Shown: piece after piece, positions 31,329-35,729 of the stretch | Layout of the letters: each line of letters starts with the position of its first letter | Position numbering within the stretch: the stretch's first letter is position 1 | Origin: Dehalococcoidia bacterium | GTDB lineage: Bacteria; Chloroflexota; Dehalococcoidia; Plut-88900 | DNA length: 64,000 bases | NCBI GenBank assembly: GCA_965197585.1 | Contig: OZ240215.1 | Location: 2,080,001-2,144,000 of the forward strand | Direction: 5' to 3' | Position numbers and translations under genes: made by a program | Notes under the pieces: generated by a model | Databases searched by the model: none | Told to the model about the DNA's origin: nothing | What the model saw: only the letters and a program-made list of their open reading frames with translations

Positions 31329-33143
31329 CTAAGGACTGTACCCCGAACCCCCAGACCCGCCTTCGTAGCTGGGCAGTGTATTGACCAGGTGACCTAGCAG
31401 GTATGCGAAATCGTTGTACGAGTCCAGGTGCGACATGGACATCCTAAGGGATCCCAACCAGCTCTCCAGGGCCCTCAGATCATCCCCAATCACGGATCCT
31501 CCCTCCGCCTCCACGTATGGCAGAGCGCCGTACCTGTCGGAAGCCAGGGCTACTATGGACCCGAACCGCAGCATGTCGTCACTCGGCTCCTCGAAGCGAA
31601 CGTTCTGGTAGCCCCGGATCTCCGTGTCCTGCTGTCTCGTTTCGCCACTGATGGGGGTCACCCACCTGACATGTACGTCTCCCAGCCTGATGGCCTGTCC
31701 GCTCCAGTCGTCGACTCGGCGTGTCAGCGCCAGTTCGTAAAAGACGGTTGTGGCAGTGCCTGAGGGAATCTCTGCGAACTCCTTGCGATTCTCCACAAAG
31801 GACTCGTCAGGAGTTATACGGTTTTCGTATCCTATCAGCCGCCAGGAATTCACCGTCGAGGGGTCCCATTGCACCTGCGCTCGAGTCTGGTCGGCAAATG
31901 GAGTCGAGATTGTGGTCCAGTTTTCCCGGCTGAACGTGGCCCGGGCCTGGTTTGCATCATCCAGGTACCTGTACCATCCGTTGCCGTACTGCGCCAGCTG
32001 CTCCAGCAGGTAGTCGTTGTAGTTCTCGATGCCCACCCCTATGGTTATCAGCCGCAGCGGATTGTTGCTTTGCCGGTCGTCCGCCGACCGCAGGATTGCA
32101 AAGGGGTCCGTCGCATCCACGTTGGCAACGCCGTCCGACATGAGGATCACGTAGTTGTAGGAGTCGGGGCGGTCATAACGCATCCGGTCGGCGATCCGAA
32201 CGCCCAGGTTAAGTCCGGCCTGCACGTTGGTGCTGTTGTTGGGCCGAAGATTCCCTATGGAATTTGTGACCGCACGGTCGTCCGGCCTCCGACTCTCTAC
32301 CGTGTACCGACCGATGACGTCATCCGAGAATTGGACGACGGAGATTCGGTCATTGCTCCCCAGGCTATTTCTTATCGATTCCGCCGCCGCCCGGGCTATT
32401 TCCACCCGGTTCCCGTCCGACATTGACCCCGATGCATCCAGCACCAACGTAACGTTTAGGGGCCTGTTGTCATCCCTAACGTCCGGTGCCTGGAACGTTA
32501 ACCGGGCCAGGTGCATCTCGCTCTGCAGCGGGTGTTCGACCAGCGCCGAGGAGATTGCAAAGCTGTTGTTGTCTCTCGGCCGCGCGTACTGGTAGTTGAA
32601 TGCGTTGACCCATTCTTCCGCTCTCACCGAGTCCGGGTCGACCTGGTATCCCTCCCTAGCCCAGTTCAAAGCCAGCTGGAACGACGTCCGATCGGTGTCC
32701 AGGCTGAACGTGGAGGTTCTGTCCCGAGAGGTCGCCACCAAAGGACTGCGCCGGTAGTCCTGGAATGTCGTAGCCGCGGGCACGGCGGTCGGGGCCGGAG
32801 CCGCACTATCGGCTGAACGGGCCCATGCAAACGGGGTTGGTTCCGGCATAGCCGTTGCCCCTACCGAATAGGAGGAAGAGCTATTTTGACCGTAGTTGCC
32901 GCTTTCGGGAATAGCGTCGTCCGCCTCTTCCATCATTGCCGTGGGCTCTGGCATCGCCATCGCCGGCACCGTAGTTGATGTAGCACTTGCTTTGTACGAA
33001 TCCGATCCGGACGTATAGGATGTACTCTCTGAACGCTCCCTCATCGCCTCGGGCGTTGCCGTCGCACCTTCTGCACAAGCGAACCCCACTATCGCCACCG
33101 CCATTGTCAAAATCAGGGCTATTGCTAAACGTCTAAACAGCAT
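31329..33143 (-). CDS. vWA-domain lipoprotein (YfbK-like)
   Basis: Lipobox GFAC; STFSLDTD..S, VR.EEWVNAF.Y, MIDAS DASGS, SDG.AN, RLIGYENR. Confidence 0.9.
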   Translation of the reverse strand: MLFRRLAIALILTMAVAIVGFACAEGATATPEAMRERSESTSYTSGSDSYKASATSTTVPAMAMPEPTAMMEEADDAIPESGNYGQNSSSSYSVGATAMPEPTPFAWARSADSAAPAPTAVPAATTFQDYRRSPLVATSRDRTSTFSLDTDRTSFQLALNWAREGYQVDPDSVRAEEWVNAFNYQYARPRDNNSFAISSALVEHPLQSEMHLARLTFQAPDVRDDNRPLNVTLVLDASGSMSDGNRVEIARAAAESIRNSLGSNDRISVVQFSDDVIGRYTVESRRPDDRAVTNSIGNLRPNNSTNVQAGLNLGVRIADRMRYDRPDSYNYVILMSDGVANVDATDPFAILRSADDRQSNNPLRLITIGVGIENYNDYLLEQLAQYGNGWYRYLDDANQARATFSRENWTTISTPFADQTRAQVQWDPSTVNSWRLIGYENRITPDESFVENRKEFAEIPSGTATTVFYELALTRRVDDWSGQAIRLGDVHVRWVTPISGETRQQDTEIRGYQNVRFEEPSDDMLRFGSIVALASDRYGALPYVEAEGGSVIGDDLRALESWLGSLRMSMSHLDSYNDFAYLLGHLVNTLPSYEGGSGGSGYSP

Positions 33144-33224: not shown

Positions 33225-33765
33225 ATCCATCATTCTCGTGCCCCGACACGGCAATCCATCCCCCAGGCACGGGGCCGCTCACCCTGAGCGACGAGTCGAA
33301 GGGTCGAGCGAGGGGTGGCCCACCTTTGCCAATCCGTCGCCTGTGCCACCCCACCCACCCCCTACCCATCCCGATGCCCCGCGAGGGATCTAAAGCGCCC
33401 GCCTGCACAACACAGATGCCTATCCGGCCATCCTTGTCCCCCTTCCACCCCCTTCATTCCCGACTCCGATCGGGAATCCATCCCCATCCCCCCATTCCCA
33501 ACCCCGATCGGGCTGTAAGTGCGCCTCTGGCGTGAATCCATCCCCCTCCCACTCCCCCCAAGATTGAACTAGAGGCCCGCACGGGTGCACAGCACCCGTG
33601 CGGGCCTCTGTTCTTATCTCCCCCTCTCCCTTGAAGGCCCTAAGGGTCGAAGATGTCGTAGATGCGCCTGGGAGTGCGCCTGTCGCCTGACTTTACTTAT
33701 TCCCGGGGTGTGGGGGTTCCGCTCGCCCTGAGCAGAGTCGAAGGGTCTCAAGAGCGGAACGGGGT
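33225..33765. repeat. Cluster of mixed REP-like palindromes (families A and B, CATTCCC..GGGAATCCA family C, long perfect hairpin)
   Basis: Family C at ~33231, ~33455, ~33493; family A at ~33275 and 33716-33760; 18-bp-stem hairpin at 33571-33609. Confidence 0.75.
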
Positions 33766-33791
33766 GGACTCCCAAGTGTGACACGAACCCC

Positions 33792-33821
33792 TTGACCCTA
33801 CCTGAACATACGTGCTATTAT
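33792..33821 (+). promoter_or_regulatory. Sigma70-type promoter with overlapping LexA-like box
   Basis: TTGACC (33792-97), 18 nt, TATTAT (33816-21) with extended -10 TG; GAAC-atac-GTGC at 33804-33815. Confidence 0.65.
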
Positions 33822-33827
33822 CCCCAC

Positions 33828-34490
33828 CGTTCGAACACCACCCCAACTATCTCAAGGAGGAACCAAAAACCCAGGGAAGCCCACTAGACCCACCCGAGGA
33901 CTCAACGCCTCAGCCCATCCCAACGGCCTTCGCGCAGGCCCGCGGCACAAGTGACCGGCGCCATCTCCTTTTCCCATCGGGTCCCGTGCCCCTTTCCCTG
34001 GTAGTCAGGCGATGGAAGATGCCTGGACGGCGTCATAGCGGAACGGCCATTCCCCGCCGAGACCCCGTCTCGAAGGTCGGTTAGCAGCGAGCTTACGCTT
34101 TATCAAGCTAGGGGTGGCGGACCGGCTATCCCCGTCCGAGACTCCCTCTCGGAGGTTGGCCCGCCTGCGAGCTTACGCCATATCAAGCAAGGGGCCGTTG
34201 GGCCGCTTGGACCCTCGGGTGGCCCACGCAAATAGGATATCTGAGGGGGCCACAGCCCGATCACTGGCCCCCATCATGCCTGCGGGCATTCAGAGGCGGG
34301 GTCACAGCCGGACTATCTCCCCGGAAAGTCCGCGTTTATCATCGAGCATTAGGGGTGGCAGGGCTTCCACGCCTCGGAGCAGCCCAACATCCGCCAGCAA
34401 AACGGGGCAAGGCCGACCAATCAGCGTCTTCCATCGCCGACCACCCAACAAGCCAATCAACACCCGAATCCCAACCGAATAACCCAAATC
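33828..34490 (+). ncRNA. Candidate large structured non-coding RNA (unassigned class)
   Basis: No credible ORF; 15-bp helix 34008-22/34424-38; 9-bp helix 33871-79/33993-34001; many hairpins; internal 80-nt duplication; own promoter. Confidence 0.55.
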
Positions 34491-34511
34491 CGTAGGAGTG
34501 ACCGGCCGGTC

Positions 34512-34574
34512 GACCTGAGCCGAGCTGCAAGTGCGCCTCTGGAGCATCGAAGGGAGTCTCAAGAGCGGAATGGG
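34512..34574. repeat. REP-like family A copy with nested module, preceded by a GTAG-type palindrome
   Basis: cctgagccgag[ctgcaagtgcgcctctggagca]tcgaagggagtctcaagagcggaatg; gtaggagtgaccggccggtcgacct at 34492. Confidence 0.75.
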
Positions 34575-34643
34575 ACAGGACGTCCCCGATTCAGCCGGCC
34601 AAGCCTGCTATAATCGGCCCATCCCCTCCCCCGGAGGCCCCAC

Positions 34644-35729
34644 ATGAGACCGCCATTTCAGGTCATAGACTCCGACGGCCATATCAATGAACCCGAAGAG
34701 ATCATCGCCACCTACATGCCGCCTCCCTATGACGCCTATCTCCACGCCTGGAAGGCCAATGCGGGCGGCGACGTCTACTCCAACAACACCCTGGTTCCCA
34801 AGCAGCCCGGCATGGACCCCACCATGGGCGGCGCCCTGGGCACGAACGGCCCTTCCGGATTCCCCTTTCCCTCCGACTGGCTTGCAATCATGGACAAGGC
34901 CGGTGTCGAGAAGACCTACCTCTATCCCACCGCCTTCCTTCCCTATTCCATGATGGTCGACCCCGAATACACCGTCGCCGTGACCCGTGCCTACAACTCC
35001 TTCATCCACGACCACTGGCTGCAGGTCAACGACAGGTTCGGCGCGGTCGCCGTCATGCCCCTGCTGGACGCCGAGGAGTCCGCCAAAGAGTTGCGCAGAT
35101 CGGTGACTGAGCTCGGGTTCGCCGGAGCGTTCACTCCCGCAGTCGGGTACGGGCTAATAGGCAGGAAGCAGAACCACCCCTTCTTCGCCGAGGCCCAGGA
35201 CCTCAACACCACCGTCGCCATCCACGGCGGCCACGCCACCGCCGAATACATACCCTACACACGGTTCATCCAGCGTCACGCAGTCGGGTTCCCGGTTTCC
35301 CAAATAATCCAGATGACCAGCCTCGCCCTTGAGGGCATATTCGAGCTGTTCCCCAACCTGCGGGTTGCATTCCTCGAAGCCGGGTGCACCTGGGTCCCCT
35401 ACATGCTCGACCGGCTCGACGAGGAATGGGAGCTGCGAGGCAAGGTGGAGGCCCCCAACTGCAAGCGCGCCCCCAGCGAGTACCTCCGAGGCAGCAACGT
35501 ATTCGTCCACCTTGAACCCAACGAGAAACTACTGCCCCAGACCATCGACATTCTCGGCGGCGACGCCCTGGTCTACGCCTCCGACTGGCCTCACTGGGAC
35601 AATGACTTCCCCAACAGCATCGATCACATCTGGGAGAGAGAAGACATCACTGAAGGTCAGAAGCGGGCCATCCTCAGGGACAACCCGCTCGCCATGTACG
35701 GGATCAGTGACTCGGAAGGAGGCGCTTAA
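34644..35729 (+). CDS. Amidohydrolase_2 family protein
   Basis: IDSDGH, LYPT, AIHG, FLEAG..W, YASDWPHWD; TATAAT at ~34609. Confidence 0.9.
   Translation: MRPPFQVIDSDGHINEPEEIIATYMPPPYDAYLHAWKANAGGDVYSNNTLVPKQPGMDPTMGGALGTNGPSGFPFPSDWLAIMDKAGVEKTYLYPTAFLPYSMMVDPEYTVAVTRAYNSFIHDHWLQVNDRFGAVAVMPLLDAEESAKELRRSVTELGFAGAFTPAVGYGLIGRKQNHPFFAEAQDLNTTVAIHGGHATAEYIPYTRFIQRHAVGFPVSQIIQMTSLALEGIFELFPNLRVAFLEAGCTWVPYMLDRLDEEWELRGKVEAPNCKRAPSEYLRGSNVFVHLEPNEKLLPQTIDILGGDALVYASDWPHWDNDFPNSIDHIWEREDITEGQKRAILRDNPLAMYGISDSEGGA

What the first reader, a model, noticed from the sequence alone, without database searches (positions are those of the whole stretch)
33828..34490. Candidate ~600-nt highly structured non-coding RNA with its own promoter
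Seen in sequence: the gap between the vWA and amidohydrolase genes has no protein-like ORF but folds into two nested domains. Domain I is closed by ccagggaag/tttccctgg (33871-79/33993-34001) and holds hairpins ggcct/aggcc and ggcac/gtgcc. Domain II is closed by a 15-bp helix ggcgatggaagatgc/gcgtcttccatcgcc (34008-22/34424-38), extended by tgg-cggc/gccg-cca (34024-31/34412-19). Its hairpins lie at 34199-226, 34245-72, 34276-89, 34309-32 and 34361-85. There are also cross-domain complementarities: ccacccgagg/cctcgggtgg (33890-99/34213-22), cccaacggcc/ggccgttggg (33919-28/34193-202), ggaagccc/gggcttcc (33875-82/34361-68), and atcggg (33976) to the loop cccgat (34256). Most non-Watson-Crick pairs are G-U on the + strand, matching the promoter direction. 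Unstructured A/C-rich flanks lie on both sides. Established knowledge: large bacterial ncRNAs (OLE, ROOL, GOLLD, MISL) are of this size order. Inference: an RNA class I cannot match to any motif I recognise, possibly pseudoknotted or conformationally switching.
Basis: partly seen in the sequence, partly recalled or inferred. Interest (0 to 1): 0.88.

Follow-up and report, generated by a model that had tools for sequence, protein, structure and literature searches.

The report
Multicopy promoter-driven structured RNA element
The structured stretch is real, but it is one of about 57 copies per genome of a repeat family found in a single genus of uncultured Dehalococcoidia, each copy having its own promoter, a conserved folded RNA scaffold and a swappable structured middle part.

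Summary
The helices, the promoter and the absence of a real ORF are confirmed at the stated coordinates. Rfam has no match. The region is not a unique large ncRNA.

- **Copy number and range.** It is one of 57-58 copies in its own genome. Copies number 23-68 in all 9 genomes of one genus. None was found in 3 sister genera or in 392 other genomes of the class.
- **Anatomy.** Every copy has a sigma-70 promoter, an invariant AAGGAGG with no start codon, a conserved Domain I, a 15-18-bp closing helix round a variable Domain II (15 types), and a C/A-rich, G-poor tail.
- **Structure.** Base pairing is kept by compensatory changes, and wobble pairs favour the + strand.
- **Evolution.** At orthologous loci Domain II is swapped between species. 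One locus is empty in 4 of 5 relatives.
- **Ruled out.** No TnpB, Y1 transposase or reverse transcriptase is present. Downstream genes are diverse.

Best reading: a genus-specific family of independently transcribed, modular structured RNA cassettes lying just upstream of other promoters. Their function is unknown, and they probably end by Rho at the tail. The cis-acting promoter/leader cassette and the DNA-level mobile element remain rivals. RNA evidence is weak, because it rests on contigs only.

The parts
33570..33610 (+). Terminator-like hairpin (19 pairs) followed by TTCTTATCTC. It belongs to repeat modules that precede 13-16 of the 57 copies.
   Evidence: (I1)
33776..33791 (+). Promoter-upstream block GTGTGACACGAACCCC. 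The signature GTGACAY-N7-TTGAY occurs 68 times in the genome, 49 of them at element copies.
33792..33821 (+). Sigma-70-type promoter TTGACC-18-TATTAT with TG before the -10. The start is predicted near 33826-33828 (inferred). An equivalent promoter is seen in all 57 copies.
33822..33870 (+). A/C-rich leader holding the invariant AAGGAGG (33854-33860) with no start codon behind it.
33871..34001 (+). Domain I. Helices: P1 33871-79/33993-34001; P2 33882-84/33986-88 and 33887-91/33979-83; P4 33896-33900/33966-70; P3 hairpin 33925-29/33936-40; P5 33944-46/33960-62. Invariant loops: GAGGACTCAACG 33896-33907, GCCCATCCCAA 33913-23, CGCCATCTCCT 33960-70.
34008..34022 (+). 5' arm of the closing helix of Domain II.
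34023..34423 (+). Domain II, subfamily SF4 type. It holds about 2.5 tandem modules of about 80 nt (34040-34200) and hairpins at 34245-72, 34276-89 and 34309-32. It is the exchangeable cassette.
   Evidence: (D4)
34424..34438 (+). 3' arm of the closing helix.
34439..34482 (+). C/A-rich, G-poor, unstructured tail ending in CAACCGAATAA (34472-82). Candidate Rho loading site and 3' end (inferred).
34490..34574 (+). Other short repeat modules between the element and the next gene: the GTAGGAGTGACCGGCCGGTC hairpin type and a copy of the 33727-33763 repeat.
   Evidence: (D1, D6, D8)
34606..34614 (+). TGcTATAAT, the extended -10 of the downstream Amidohydro_2 gene (start 34644). It is conserved in the G002 and G001 orthologues.

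Best explanation
Window 33776-34482 (+) is one member of a genus-restricted, multicopy family of modular structured-RNA cassettes.

**Build of each copy, in order.**
1. A conserved sigma-70 promoter.
2. An unstructured A/C-rich leader with an invariant Shine-Dalgarno-like AAGGAGG and no start codon.
3. A conserved multi-helix Domain I.
4. A conserved 15-18-bp helix that closes a 300-550-nt structured Domain II of variable type.
5. A C/A-rich, G-poor tail of about 50 nt.

**Shown.**
- The family, its anatomy and its copy number.
- Restriction to one genus.
- Selection for base pairing, with + strand polarity.
- Exchange of Domain II between orthologous loci.
- Presence and absence that differ between species.
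- No coding potential.

**Inferred.**
- Each copy is transcribed on its own into a stable non-coding RNA of about 0.65 kb.
- The AAGGAGG near the 5' end binds 30S subunits and shields the RNA, as STAB-SD stabilisers do.
- The long helix is a closing or processing stem.
- Transcription ends by Rho in the tail, just before the next gene's own promoter.
- Copies are reshuffled by recombination between their conserved parts.

The cellular role of the RNA is not known.
For: **Family and range.**
- 57 copies with the 5' module in the genome (blastn). The covariance model finds 58.
- One further copy lacks Domain I.
- The core motif is present in 9 of 9 genomes of the genus at 23-57 copies. Only single 2-mismatch hits appear, in 6 of 392 other genomes of the class.
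- The model finds 23-68 copies in 9 of 12 genomes of the order, all in one genus.

**Promoter.** All 57 copies show GTGACAY-N7-TTGAC, a spacer of 17-18 nt and a TATTAT/TATATT box, across 3-4 different leader classes (window site).

**RNA-level selection.**
- Domain I, 101 copies: 89.4% paired. 17 of 30 pairs change on both sides. There are 168 such cells against 49.0 +/- 5.7 in shuffles (0 of 500 reach it). The covariation score is 0.182, against 0.088 shuffled and 0.055 or less when slid. This alignment was fitted to the model. On the unfitted MAFFT alignment 86.3% of cells are paired, against 37-50% when slid.
- Closing helix, 57 copies: 780 Watson-Crick, 32 G.U and 10 A.C pairs. Positions 12-14 covary: AT 33/GC 9, CG 25/TA 10, GC 32/CG 10.
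- Domain II, 27 copies: 84.5% paired. There are 74 cells with two-sided change against 32.4 +/- 5.6 (0 of 500). One-sided changes are nearly all GC/GU or UA/UG on the + strand.

**Non-coding.**

**Cassette behaviour.**
- 15 Domain II types occur in one genome.
- At three loci the orthologous copy in other species carries another type, although flanks are up to 95% identical.
- The arms never occur without the rest of the element.

**Independence from neighbours.**
- 12 of 57 copies face a convergent gene.
- 2 copies precede tRNA genes.
- The 20 downstream genes examined, of 45 co-directional, belong to unrelated Pfam families.
- Downstream genes have their own -35/-10 directly after the element.

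**Termination.**
- The tail is A 42%, C 39%, G 10%, T 8%.
- A Rho gene is present.
- No terminator-like hairpin follows the element in the window.

**Weak RNA evidence.** Contigs of 4 metatranscriptome runs from 3 studies lie on 33811-34191, with summed depth up to 266.
Against: - No raw reads were available. The RNA-library contigs give no strand and no ends, and may include DNA. Their depth sums many paralogues and relatives. Two contigs reach 33811, about 15 nt upstream of the predicted start.
- The single-sequence folding z-scores are modest.
- The orientation bias and the exact abutment to the next promoter fit a cis role or targeted insertion at least as well. 45 of 57 copies have a co-directional downstream gene. 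20 of 21 blockB modules lie directly after element tails, and in these copies blockB ends 5 nt before a -35 (my reading).
- Related copies share descent, so part of the 5'/3' association of helix types would arise without selection. 8 of 98 copies are chimeric in P2.
- The excess of G.U over A.C could partly reflect a transcription-linked mutation bias.
- The termination mechanism, the stabiliser role of AAGGAGG and processing at the helix are untested inferences.
Confidence: 0.7

Rival explanations
1. Cis-acting mobile promoter/leader cassette. The element exists to drive or modulate the gene downstream. It would do so by read-through from its strong promoter, by supplying an upstream activating block to the next promoter, or by conditional Rho termination in the tail. 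The structured RNA would serve as a stabilising or insulating leader.
For: - 45 of 57 copies have a co-directional downstream gene. By my normal approximation the two-sided p is about 2e-5.
- The median gap from tail to start codon is about 140 nt.
- 20 of the 21 blockB modules in the genome lie directly after element tails. In these copies blockB ends GAGTACA-N5 immediately before a -35 hexamer, with a -10 about 17 nt further on (my reading).
- The position upstream of the same gene is kept in 4 of 5 genomes at the window locus. It is kept in at least 4 genomes at a second locus.
- In G002 the tail abuts the gene's TATAAT.
- One RNA contig spans 34477-34687, from the tail end into the gene.
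- Reuse of promoters between unrelated genes is described in PMC3575422 (search listing and start of the abstract only).
Against: - 12 of 57 copies are convergent with the next gene.
- Downstream genes keep their own promoters.
- Domain II type is unrelated to the downstream gene. It differs between species at the same locus.
- 20 downstream genes are functionally unrelated.
- The orthologous gene in G007, and the L007-locus genes in four genomes, do without the element.
- A 650-nt body conserved by covariation is more than a promoter carrier needs.
Confidence: 0.2
2. Non-autonomous DNA transposon (large MITE-like element). On this view the inverted arms and hairpins matter at the DNA level, for a transposase or as single-stranded DNA, and transcription is incidental.
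For: - The element is multicopy, restricted to one genus and mosaic.
- One locus is filled in G000 and G001 but empty in G005, G002, G004 and G007, where the flanks lie 12-34 nt apart.
- The two junctions there share a similarity of about 9 nt that could be a target duplication (one locus, my reading).
- The arms are perfect inverted repeats, as transposon ends are.
Against: - The inverted arms are internal, not terminal, and never occur apart from the whole element.
- No terminal inverted repeats of the whole unit were found.
- The genome has no TnpB, Y1 transposase or reverse transcriptase. It is a single contig rated 92% complete.
- The only IS seen nearby has an rve transposase and unrelated ends.
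- Compensatory changes lie in many internal helices, and single-stranded loops are invariant.
- G.U outnumbers A.C by 32 to 10.
- A promoter is kept in all 57 copies.
- Flank identities at the polymorphic locus differ on the two sides. The left flank is 81% identical to G001 and 75-76% to G005/G002. The right flank is 87% and 92%. This suggests allelic recombination rather than transposition.
Confidence: 0.08
3. A single, unique large structured ncRNA gene of the OLE/ROOL/GOLLD type.
For: - Its size is about 0.65 kb.
- It has its own promoter and is highly structured.
- Rfam has no match.
Against: - There are 57 copies in the genome and 23-68 in each relative.
- 15 versions of Domain II exist.
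- Rfam models of the known large ncRNAs do not match any of 16 subfamily representatives.
Confidence: 0.02

Closest known systems
BOX elements of Streptococcus pneumoniae (modular boxA-boxB(n)-boxC interspersed repeats). Source: PMC3049150, search listing and start of the abstract only; other details are recalled.
   Same: - Interspersed intergenic repeats in dozens of copies.
- Modular, with conserved end modules and a variable middle. The SF4 type here carries 2.5-4.5 tandem 80-nt modules.
- Predicted to fold as RNA.
- No coding capacity.
   Different: - About 0.65 kb here, against roughly 0.1-0.3 kb (recalled).
- Every copy carries its own complete promoter.
- A large conserved multi-helix domain has invariant loops and covariation.
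- The middle is a whole exchangeable structured domain in 15 unrelated types.
- No sequence relation was tested or expected.
Correia repeat enclosed elements (CREE) of Neisseria. Source: PMC2649163, search listing and start of the abstract only.
   Same: - Multicopy intergenic elements that sit next to genes.
- They can provide promoter sequences.
- They contain inverted repeats that form double-stranded RNA bound or cut by RNase III. The 15-18-bp closing helix here is a candidate for the same (inferred).
   Different: - CREE are short MITEs with terminal inverted repeats and target duplications (recalled).
- Here the inverted arms are internal, and no terminal repeats or transposase partner were found.
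- The element is several times longer and has a conserved scaffold.
Large structured bacterial ncRNAs (OLE, ROOL, GOLLD) and the multicopy HEARO/omega RNA of IS200/IS605-type elements.
   Same: - The size class is the same.
- There are many conserved helices supported by covariation.
- Like HEARO, it is present in many copies per genome.
   Different: - No Rfam model matches.
- No IscB/TnpB-type gene accompanies it: PF07282 finds nothing in the genome.
- It is confined to one genus.
- Half of the RNA is an exchangeable cassette.
STAB-SD 5' stabilisers of Gram-positive mRNAs. Source: search listing only; the mechanism is recalled.
   Same: A perfect Shine-Dalgarno-like AAGGAGG lies about 30 nt from the predicted 5' end and is not followed by a start codon. 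It is nearly invariant in 98 copies.
   Different: - No evidence here for 30S binding or for stabilisation.
- The RNA behind it is non-coding.
rRNA operon architecture: leader, long processing stem round a structured RNA, and leader motifs.
   Same: - A strong promoter, a leader, and a long helix enclosing a large structured RNA.
- The 11-mer at the end of 8 element tails occurs only three more times in the genome. Two are in tails of a sister repeat family. The third is in the 16S leader, where it is the 5' strand of the 16S processing stem.
   Different: - Only an 11-nt identity, and in a subset of copies. The window copy has the variant CAACCGAATAA.
- No complementary partner for the motif was seen in the element.
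- The functional meaning is untested.

Membership tests
Any Rfam 15 family, including OLE, ROOL, GOLLD, HEARO, raiA, group I/II introns and ribozymes | A match to the family covariance model at or near its gathering score | tested here: not met
   - 0 matches at gathering score in the 64-kb window.
- Only microRNA models, at E 0.12-8.5, on an upstream hairpin.
- For 16 subfamily representatives plus 2 orthologous loci, the only hit above gathering score is a neighbouring SRP RNA gene.
MITE / non-autonomous DNA transposon | Terminal inverted repeats at the ends of the mobile unit | tested here: not met
   - The only strong inverted repeat is internal (34008-22/34424-38).
- The 5' block and the 3' blockB share only an inverted 7-mer, GTGACAC (my reading).
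MITE / non-autonomous DNA transposon | Target-site duplication at filled sites compared with empty sites | tested here: inconclusive
   At the one locus compared, both junctions and the empty site carry a similar string of about 9 nt. The compared genomes are only 75-80% identical there.
MITE / non-autonomous DNA transposon | A cognate autonomous element whose transposase recognises the same ends | tested here: not met
   - PF07282, PF00078 and PF01797 find nothing in the own genome.
- The rve-type IS has unrelated ends.
- Other transposase families were not screened.
MITE / non-autonomous DNA transposon | Presence/absence polymorphism between close relatives | tested here: met
   - 4 loci were probed.
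- Locus L007 is filled in G000 and G001 and empty in G005, G002, G004 and G007.
- Two loci are occupied in most genomes.
- One locus was uninformative.
Cis-regulatory leader / riboswitch-like element | The RNA type goes with the function of the downstream gene | tested here: not met
   - Domain II differs between species upstream of the same gene.
- 20 downstream genes have unrelated Pfam families.
Cis-regulatory leader / riboswitch-like element | Always co-transcribed with and upstream of a gene on the same strand | tested here: not met
   - 45 of 57 copies are co-directional and 12 of 57 convergent.
- Downstream genes have their own promoters.
- Co-transcription itself cannot be tested with contigs.
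Invertible DNA switch (inverton) | The segment between the inverted repeats is found in both orientations | tested here: not met
   There are no minus-strand matches among the 57 Domain II segments.
Independent small/large ncRNA gene | Own promoter conserved across copies | tested here: met
   57 of 57 copies. The window site scores 10 of 12 with TG.
Independent small/large ncRNA gene | Secondary structure kept by compensatory change | tested here: met
.
Independent small/large ncRNA gene | A discrete transcript with defined 5' and 3' ends | not testable with these tools
   Only Logan contigs of RNA libraries could be laid. They give no strand and no ends.
Protein-coding gene | A conserved reading frame or a family match | tested here: not met
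   - ORFs are low-complexity and R/P/S-rich, and their frames differ between subfamilies.
- There is no Pfam match.
- Indels of 1-2 nt separate copies.

The most novel reading that the evidence does not exclude
A new class of large, modular, multicopy non-coding RNA. Its conserved scaffold would be a functional platform that engages core machinery, such as the 30S subunit, rRNA-processing nucleases or Rho. The scaffold comprises:
- the Shine-Dalgarno-like leader;
- Domain I with invariant loops, including an anti-SD-like CAUCUCCUC;
- the long closing helix;
- the tail carrying a 16S-leader motif.

Domain II would be an exchangeable RNA cargo, shuffled between loci by recombination at the conserved arms. 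That would make this an RNA-level cassette system without a known precedent in bacteria.
Probability: 0.22. Interest if true: 0.85.

Novelty: new variant of a known kind. Interest (0 to 1): 0.62.

Why it matters
If these are functional RNAs, one genus of uncultured Dehalococcoidia spends about 1% of its genome on them (57 copies of roughly 0.7 kb in 3.43 Mb, my arithmetic). That is several dozen strongly promoted structured RNAs of 0.65 kb built on one scaffold with interchangeable domains. No curated RNA family has this organisation.

- **Testable questions.** What binds the invariant loops and the exposed AAGGAGG? Is the long helix a processing site? How are 300-550-nt structured cassettes exchanged between loci whose flanks are 95% identical?
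- **If the elements are selfish or merely cis-acting.** They still show how promoters and insulated transcription units spread through intergenic regions.
- **Practical use.** They are a strong caveat for genome scans, because a convincing lone large ncRNA can be a repeat.
- **Annotation.** The family should be masked or modelled in MAGs of this group.

Tried and rejected
- **Known RNA families.** Rfam at gathering and at permissive thresholds, on the window and on 18 further loci, gave nothing relevant.
- **Coding.** Internal ORFs were translated for all copies and rejected as junk. Pfam was negative.
- **RNAalifold on a plain MAFFT alignment of 98 Domain I copies.** It gave only 13 pairs and no covariation, because MAFFT misaligned the two helix types. 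It was replaced by a hand-set structure and a covariance model.
- **Cognate versus non-cognate duplex energies for Domain I strands.** They barely differed (-23.0 against -21.2 kcal/mol, with 43% of non-cognate pairs as good), because most copies share one type. This is not used as evidence.
- **Domain II as an independent MITE.** Rejected: the arms never occur without the rest of the element.
- **Inverton.** Rejected.
- **CsrA sponge.** Rejected: there is no CsrA gene.
- **Retroelement or IS200/IS605 derivative.** There is no RT, TnpB or Y1 gene.
- **Phage or plasmid origin.** No match in viral contigs, plasmids or phages. Only 6 short contigs of one metagenome record set hold the core motif.
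- **Locus L005.** Uninformative, because its left flank has no match in relatives.
- **Locus L008.** Uninformative, because its right flank is a multicopy IS-like repeat.
- **RNA contigs.** In the four runs laid, no contig covered 33764-33810 or most of 34196-34451.
- **Literature.** Searches for a described counterpart returned only unrelated papers. This does not show that none is in print, since subscription journals are not covered. Papers' supplementary files were not opened.
- **The search of earlier findings.** It was closed, and a second call failed on a formal requirement. No earlier findings were used.
- **Resemblance of the 16S-leader motif to an antitermination boxA.** This rests on recall only and was not tested.
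Full report
**What was claimed and what is there.**

- The flanking genes are as stated: vWA domains in 31329-33143 (-) and Amidohydro_2 in 34644-35729 (+).
- The listed helices are present at the listed coordinates. One search finds the 15-nt arms 34008-22/34424-38.
- A sigma-70-type promoter, TTGACC-18-TATTAT with an upstream TG, lies at 33792-33821. It is the only such site in 1.4 kb, against 0.3 expected.
- The two + strand ORFs inside have no Pfam match.
- Rfam gives nothing at gathering score in the whole window. Under permissive settings it gives only chance microRNA models on an upstream hairpin.
- Folding energy alone is modest evidence. The whole region gives z -2.0 on the + strand and +0.77 on the - strand. 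Domain I gives -1.39 and part of Domain II gives -2.16.

**The decisive finding: it is a repeat.**

- A search of the window's own genome (one contig of 3.43 Mb) returned 81 matches. Six were near full-length, and about 40 covered the first 240 nt.
- With blastn I defined 57 copies of the 5' module. A covariance model of Domain I finds 58, and only one of them lies in the window, at 33854-34018.
- The family occurs in all 8 other genomes of the same genus. These are titled as uncultured Dehalococcoidia MAGs.
- The invariant core motif is present at 23-57 copies in 9 of 9 genomes of the genus. In 392 other genomes of the class it gives only single 2-mismatch hits, in 6 genomes.
- The model finds 23-68 copies in the 9 genomes of the genus and none in the 3 other genera of the order.
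- Nothing similar is in viral contigs, plasmids or phage records. Six short contigs of one metagenome record set hold the motif.

**Anatomy of the family.** Every one of the 57 copies has the same promoter architecture. An upstream block GTGACAY sits 7 nt before TTGAC, then a 17-18-nt spacer and a TATTAT/TATATT box. This holds even though 3-4 unrelated leader sequences follow it. The parts then follow in order:

- **Leader.** About 30-38 nt after the -10 box lies AAGGAGG, nearly invariant in 98 aligned copies, with no start codon behind it.
- **Domain I** (33871-34001 here). It has invariant single-stranded stretches: GAGGACTCAACG, GCCCATCCCAA, GGCNCAAGC and CGCCATCTCCT.
- **Closing helix and Domain II.** The conserved arm GGCGATGGAAG pairs with CTTCCATCGCC 313-515 nt downstream in at least 53 of 57 copies. 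A looser match finds it in all 57. Between the arms lies Domain II, which falls into 15 unrelated sequence types in this genome. The window copy belongs to a type with 6 members.
- **Tail.** After the 3' arm comes a tail of about 50 nt composed of A 42%, C 39%, G 10% and T 8%. It ends in CACAATCGAAGAT, CACAACTGAATAA or CAACCGAATAA.
- **Integrity.** The arms and tail never occur apart from the rest of the element. The only extra copy is one with Domain I deleted.

**Is the structure selected?** Yes, and on the + strand.

- **Domain I.** I set a structure from the window copy, built a model and aligned 101 copies from the genus to it.
  - 89.4% of cells pair, against 38-53% when partners are slid.
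  - 17 of 30 pairs show changes on both sides.
  - There are 168 such cells, against 49.0 +/- 5.7 in shuffles (0 of 500 reach it).
  - The covariation score is 0.182, against 0.088 shuffled and 0.055 or less when slid.
  - That alignment is fitted to the structure. On a plain MAFFT alignment of 65 copies, 86.3% of cells still pair, against 37-50% slid.
- **Helix P2.** The clearest case exists in two mutually compensating versions, CAC-nn-GACCC/GGGTC-CC-GTG and AGCC-CC-GGCC/GGCC-CC-GGCT. There are 58 and 16 matched copies, 8 chimeras and 16 unclear, out of 98.
- **Closing helix.** In 57 copies it has 780 Watson-Crick, 32 G.U and 10 A.C pairs, and three consecutive positions covary.
- **Domain II.** I aligned the window's type with 26 related copies at 72-95% identity from six genomes. 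Seven rows were cut short by a false arm match.
  - The window's own minimum-energy fold keeps 84.5% of cells paired, against 35-47% slid.
  - There are 74 cells with two-sided change, against 32.4 +/- 5.6 (0 of 500).
  - One-sided changes are almost all GC/GU or UA/UG.
  - ggcac/gtgcc is not supported.
  - The cross-domain complementarities are confined to this subfamily, plus three other copies for one of them. They cannot be a family feature.

**How the copies behave in evolution.** Four loci were probed, and three were informative. L005 gave no left-flank match.

- **Window locus.** G005 holds the same type (95% identical), with an rve-type IS inserted just upstream of the -35. G001 and G002 hold an element whose 5' module and tail are orthologous but whose Domain II is of another type. 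G007 has no element, only a tail-like remnant.
- **Second locus.** The flanks are 95% identical between G000 and G005, yet the G005 Domain II resembles no type in G000. G002 has a third type.
- **Third locus.** A block of about 1.13 kb, comprising upstream terminator-like repeat modules plus the element, is present in G000. G001 has an element of another type there. In G005, G002, G004 and G007 the flanks lie 12-34 nt apart. The two flanks there have different nearest relatives, which points to allelic recombination.
- **Summary.** Positions are often old, Domain II is exchanged like a cassette, and whole units can be present or absent. No Domain II occurs inverted.
- **Mobilising genes.** The genome has no TnpB-like, Y1-transposase or reverse-transcriptase gene.

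**Relation to neighbours.**

- With a crude GC-frame gene call, 45 of 57 copies have a co-directional and 12 a convergent downstream gene.
- Two copies precede tRNA genes.
- In about half of the copies the tail is followed by short repeats and a conserved block (blockB). This block occurs 21 times in the genome, 20 of them right after an element. By my reading it ends five bases before the -35 of the next gene's own promoter.
- Twenty of the 45 co-directional downstream genes were examined. They belong to unrelated families: MFS transporters, Lgt, RibF, arginase, ZnuA, SulP, flavoproteins, amidohydrolases and others.

**Expression.** Only Logan contigs of RNA libraries could be laid. Contigs from four metatranscriptome runs of three studies lie on 33811-34191, with summed depth up to 266. 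The amidohydrolase gene reaches about 3, and only in two of the runs. This is weak evidence for four reasons:

- contigs carry no strand and no ends;
- DNA can be present in RNA libraries;
- depth sums paralogues and relatives;
- two contigs reach about 15 nt upstream of the predicted start.

**Most likely mechanism.** I read the element as an independently transcribed, non-coding, modular structured RNA.

- **Shown.** The promoter, the RNA-level constraint, the + strand polarity, the lack of coding and the cassette exchange.
- **Inferred: 5' protection.** The exposed AAGGAGG near the 5' end binds 30S subunits and protects the RNA. The same idea covers the C-rich leader and Rho. This is the STAB-SD principle, which is recalled; only a search listing was seen.
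- **Inferred: the long helix.** It closes or processes Domain II.
- **Inferred: termination.** The C-rich, G-poor, unstructured tail is a Rho entry site that ends the transcript before the next promoter. Rho is encoded, and no intrinsic terminator follows the element here.
- **Inferred: recombination.** Recombination between the conserved parts moves Domain II cassettes among loci.

A CsrA-sponge role is excluded, since there is no CsrA gene. The cellular role remains open.

**An unexplained link.** The 11-mer at the end of 8 tails occurs only three more times in the genome. Two are in tails of a sister repeat family. The third is in the 16S rRNA leader, where it forms the 5' strand of the 16S processing stem.

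**Rivals.**

- **Cis-acting promoter/leader cassette (0.2).** It explains the orientation bias and the exact abutment to promoters. It does not explain the 12 convergent copies, the independent downstream promoters, or a Domain II that is unrelated to the gene behind it.
- **DNA-level mobile element (0.08).** It explains the copy number and the empty site. It lacks terminal repeats and a transposase, and it does not explain the invariant loops, the internal covariation or the universal promoter.
- **Unique OLE-like RNA.** Refuted by the copy number.

**Comparison with known systems.** The closest analogues are modular interspersed repeats such as pneumococcal BOX elements (PMC3049150) and Neisseria Correia elements, which provide promoters and RNase III sites (PMC2649163). 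For both papers only the listing and the start of the abstract were seen. Among RNAs, the multicopy HEARO class is the nearest. The differences here are:

- a size of 0.65 kb;
- a complete promoter in every copy;
- a large scaffold conserved by covariation;
- a whole structured domain that is exchanged between loci.

I therefore file it as a new variant of a known kind, a transcribed interspersed repeat or structured RNA family. It is not a member of any described family.

**Verdict.**

- Interest is moderate to high. The organisation is unusual and directly testable, but function and even transcription still need proper data.

Noticed in passing
G000:C1 at 62860(+), 684518(-), 1590859(+), 2280200(+), 3022084(+), 3035253(-), 3062928(-), 3386770(-): A second non-coding repeat family of about 8-10 copies. 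It uses the same promoter signature (GTGACAY-N7-TTGAC, TACTATATT) and the same closing arms and C-rich tail. Its 5' domain is different, with a leader hairpin and then AAAGGAGTCCCATGAG. Its ORFs are R/P/S-rich junk of varying length. This suggests a wider superfamily built on the arm helix.
   Followed up: partly
L132:190-1560 (G005 orthologue of the window locus) and G000:C1 about 660600 (upstream of copy c660873+): An IS of about 1.37 kb with an rve (DDE) transposase is inserted just upstream of the -35 of the element's promoter, between the GTGACAC block and TTGAC in G005. This occurs in two independent places, so that spot may be a preferred target.
   Followed up: partly
window 33570-33650; also upstream of 13-16 of the 57 copies: A repeat module made of a terminator-like hairpin with conserved feet (CTAGAGG...CCTCTGTTCTT) but a variable inner stem. 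It is followed by a second hairpin, CTCCCCCTCTCCCTTGAAGGCCCTAAGGG. There are 20 and 34 copies in the genome, about half of them upstream of elements.
   Followed up: partly
window 33727-33763 and 34536-34574; 36 copies of the core in G000: A short repeat, ...CGAAGGGTCTCAAGAGCGGAAYGGG, flanks the element on both sides in the window. It occurs mostly elsewhere in the genome (30 of 36). RNA-library contigs also lie on it, with unlike sequence on both sides.
   Followed up: partly
after element tails, e.g. G000:C1 about 2527450; 48 copies in G000: Units of about 15-22 nt, (GGAACA)TCCGCCTCWGGAGGA, occur singly or in tandem after tails (22), inside Domain I of some copies (7) and elsewhere (19). Each carries a GGAGGA.
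   Followed up: no
window 34490-34512; 26 similar sites in G000: A palindromic GTAGGGGCGACCGGCCGGTCGCC-type hairpin repeat. In some relatives it is also inserted in the loop of the Domain I hairpin P3 (L042, L043, L050 and others).
   Followed up: no
G000:C1:681700-681830 (-) and the region after the 16S 3' end at 680173 (-): The 16S rRNA leader CCTTAACAACTGAATAG is complementary to CTACTGAGTTGTTAAGG after the 16S gene, forming a processing stem. Its 11-mer ACAACTGAATA is otherwise found only in the tails of the two repeat families.
   Followed up: partly
L153:1-133 (-), G000:C1 about 1427829-1427961: A bacterial large SRP RNA gene (Rfam RF01854, 73.5 bits, cut at the locus end) lies directly upstream of element copy c1428317+.
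   Followed up: no
G000:C1 about 3412500-3413700 (right flank of L008): A stretch of about 1.1 kb has 7 copies at 84-86% identity in G004. It is probably an IS.
   Followed up: no
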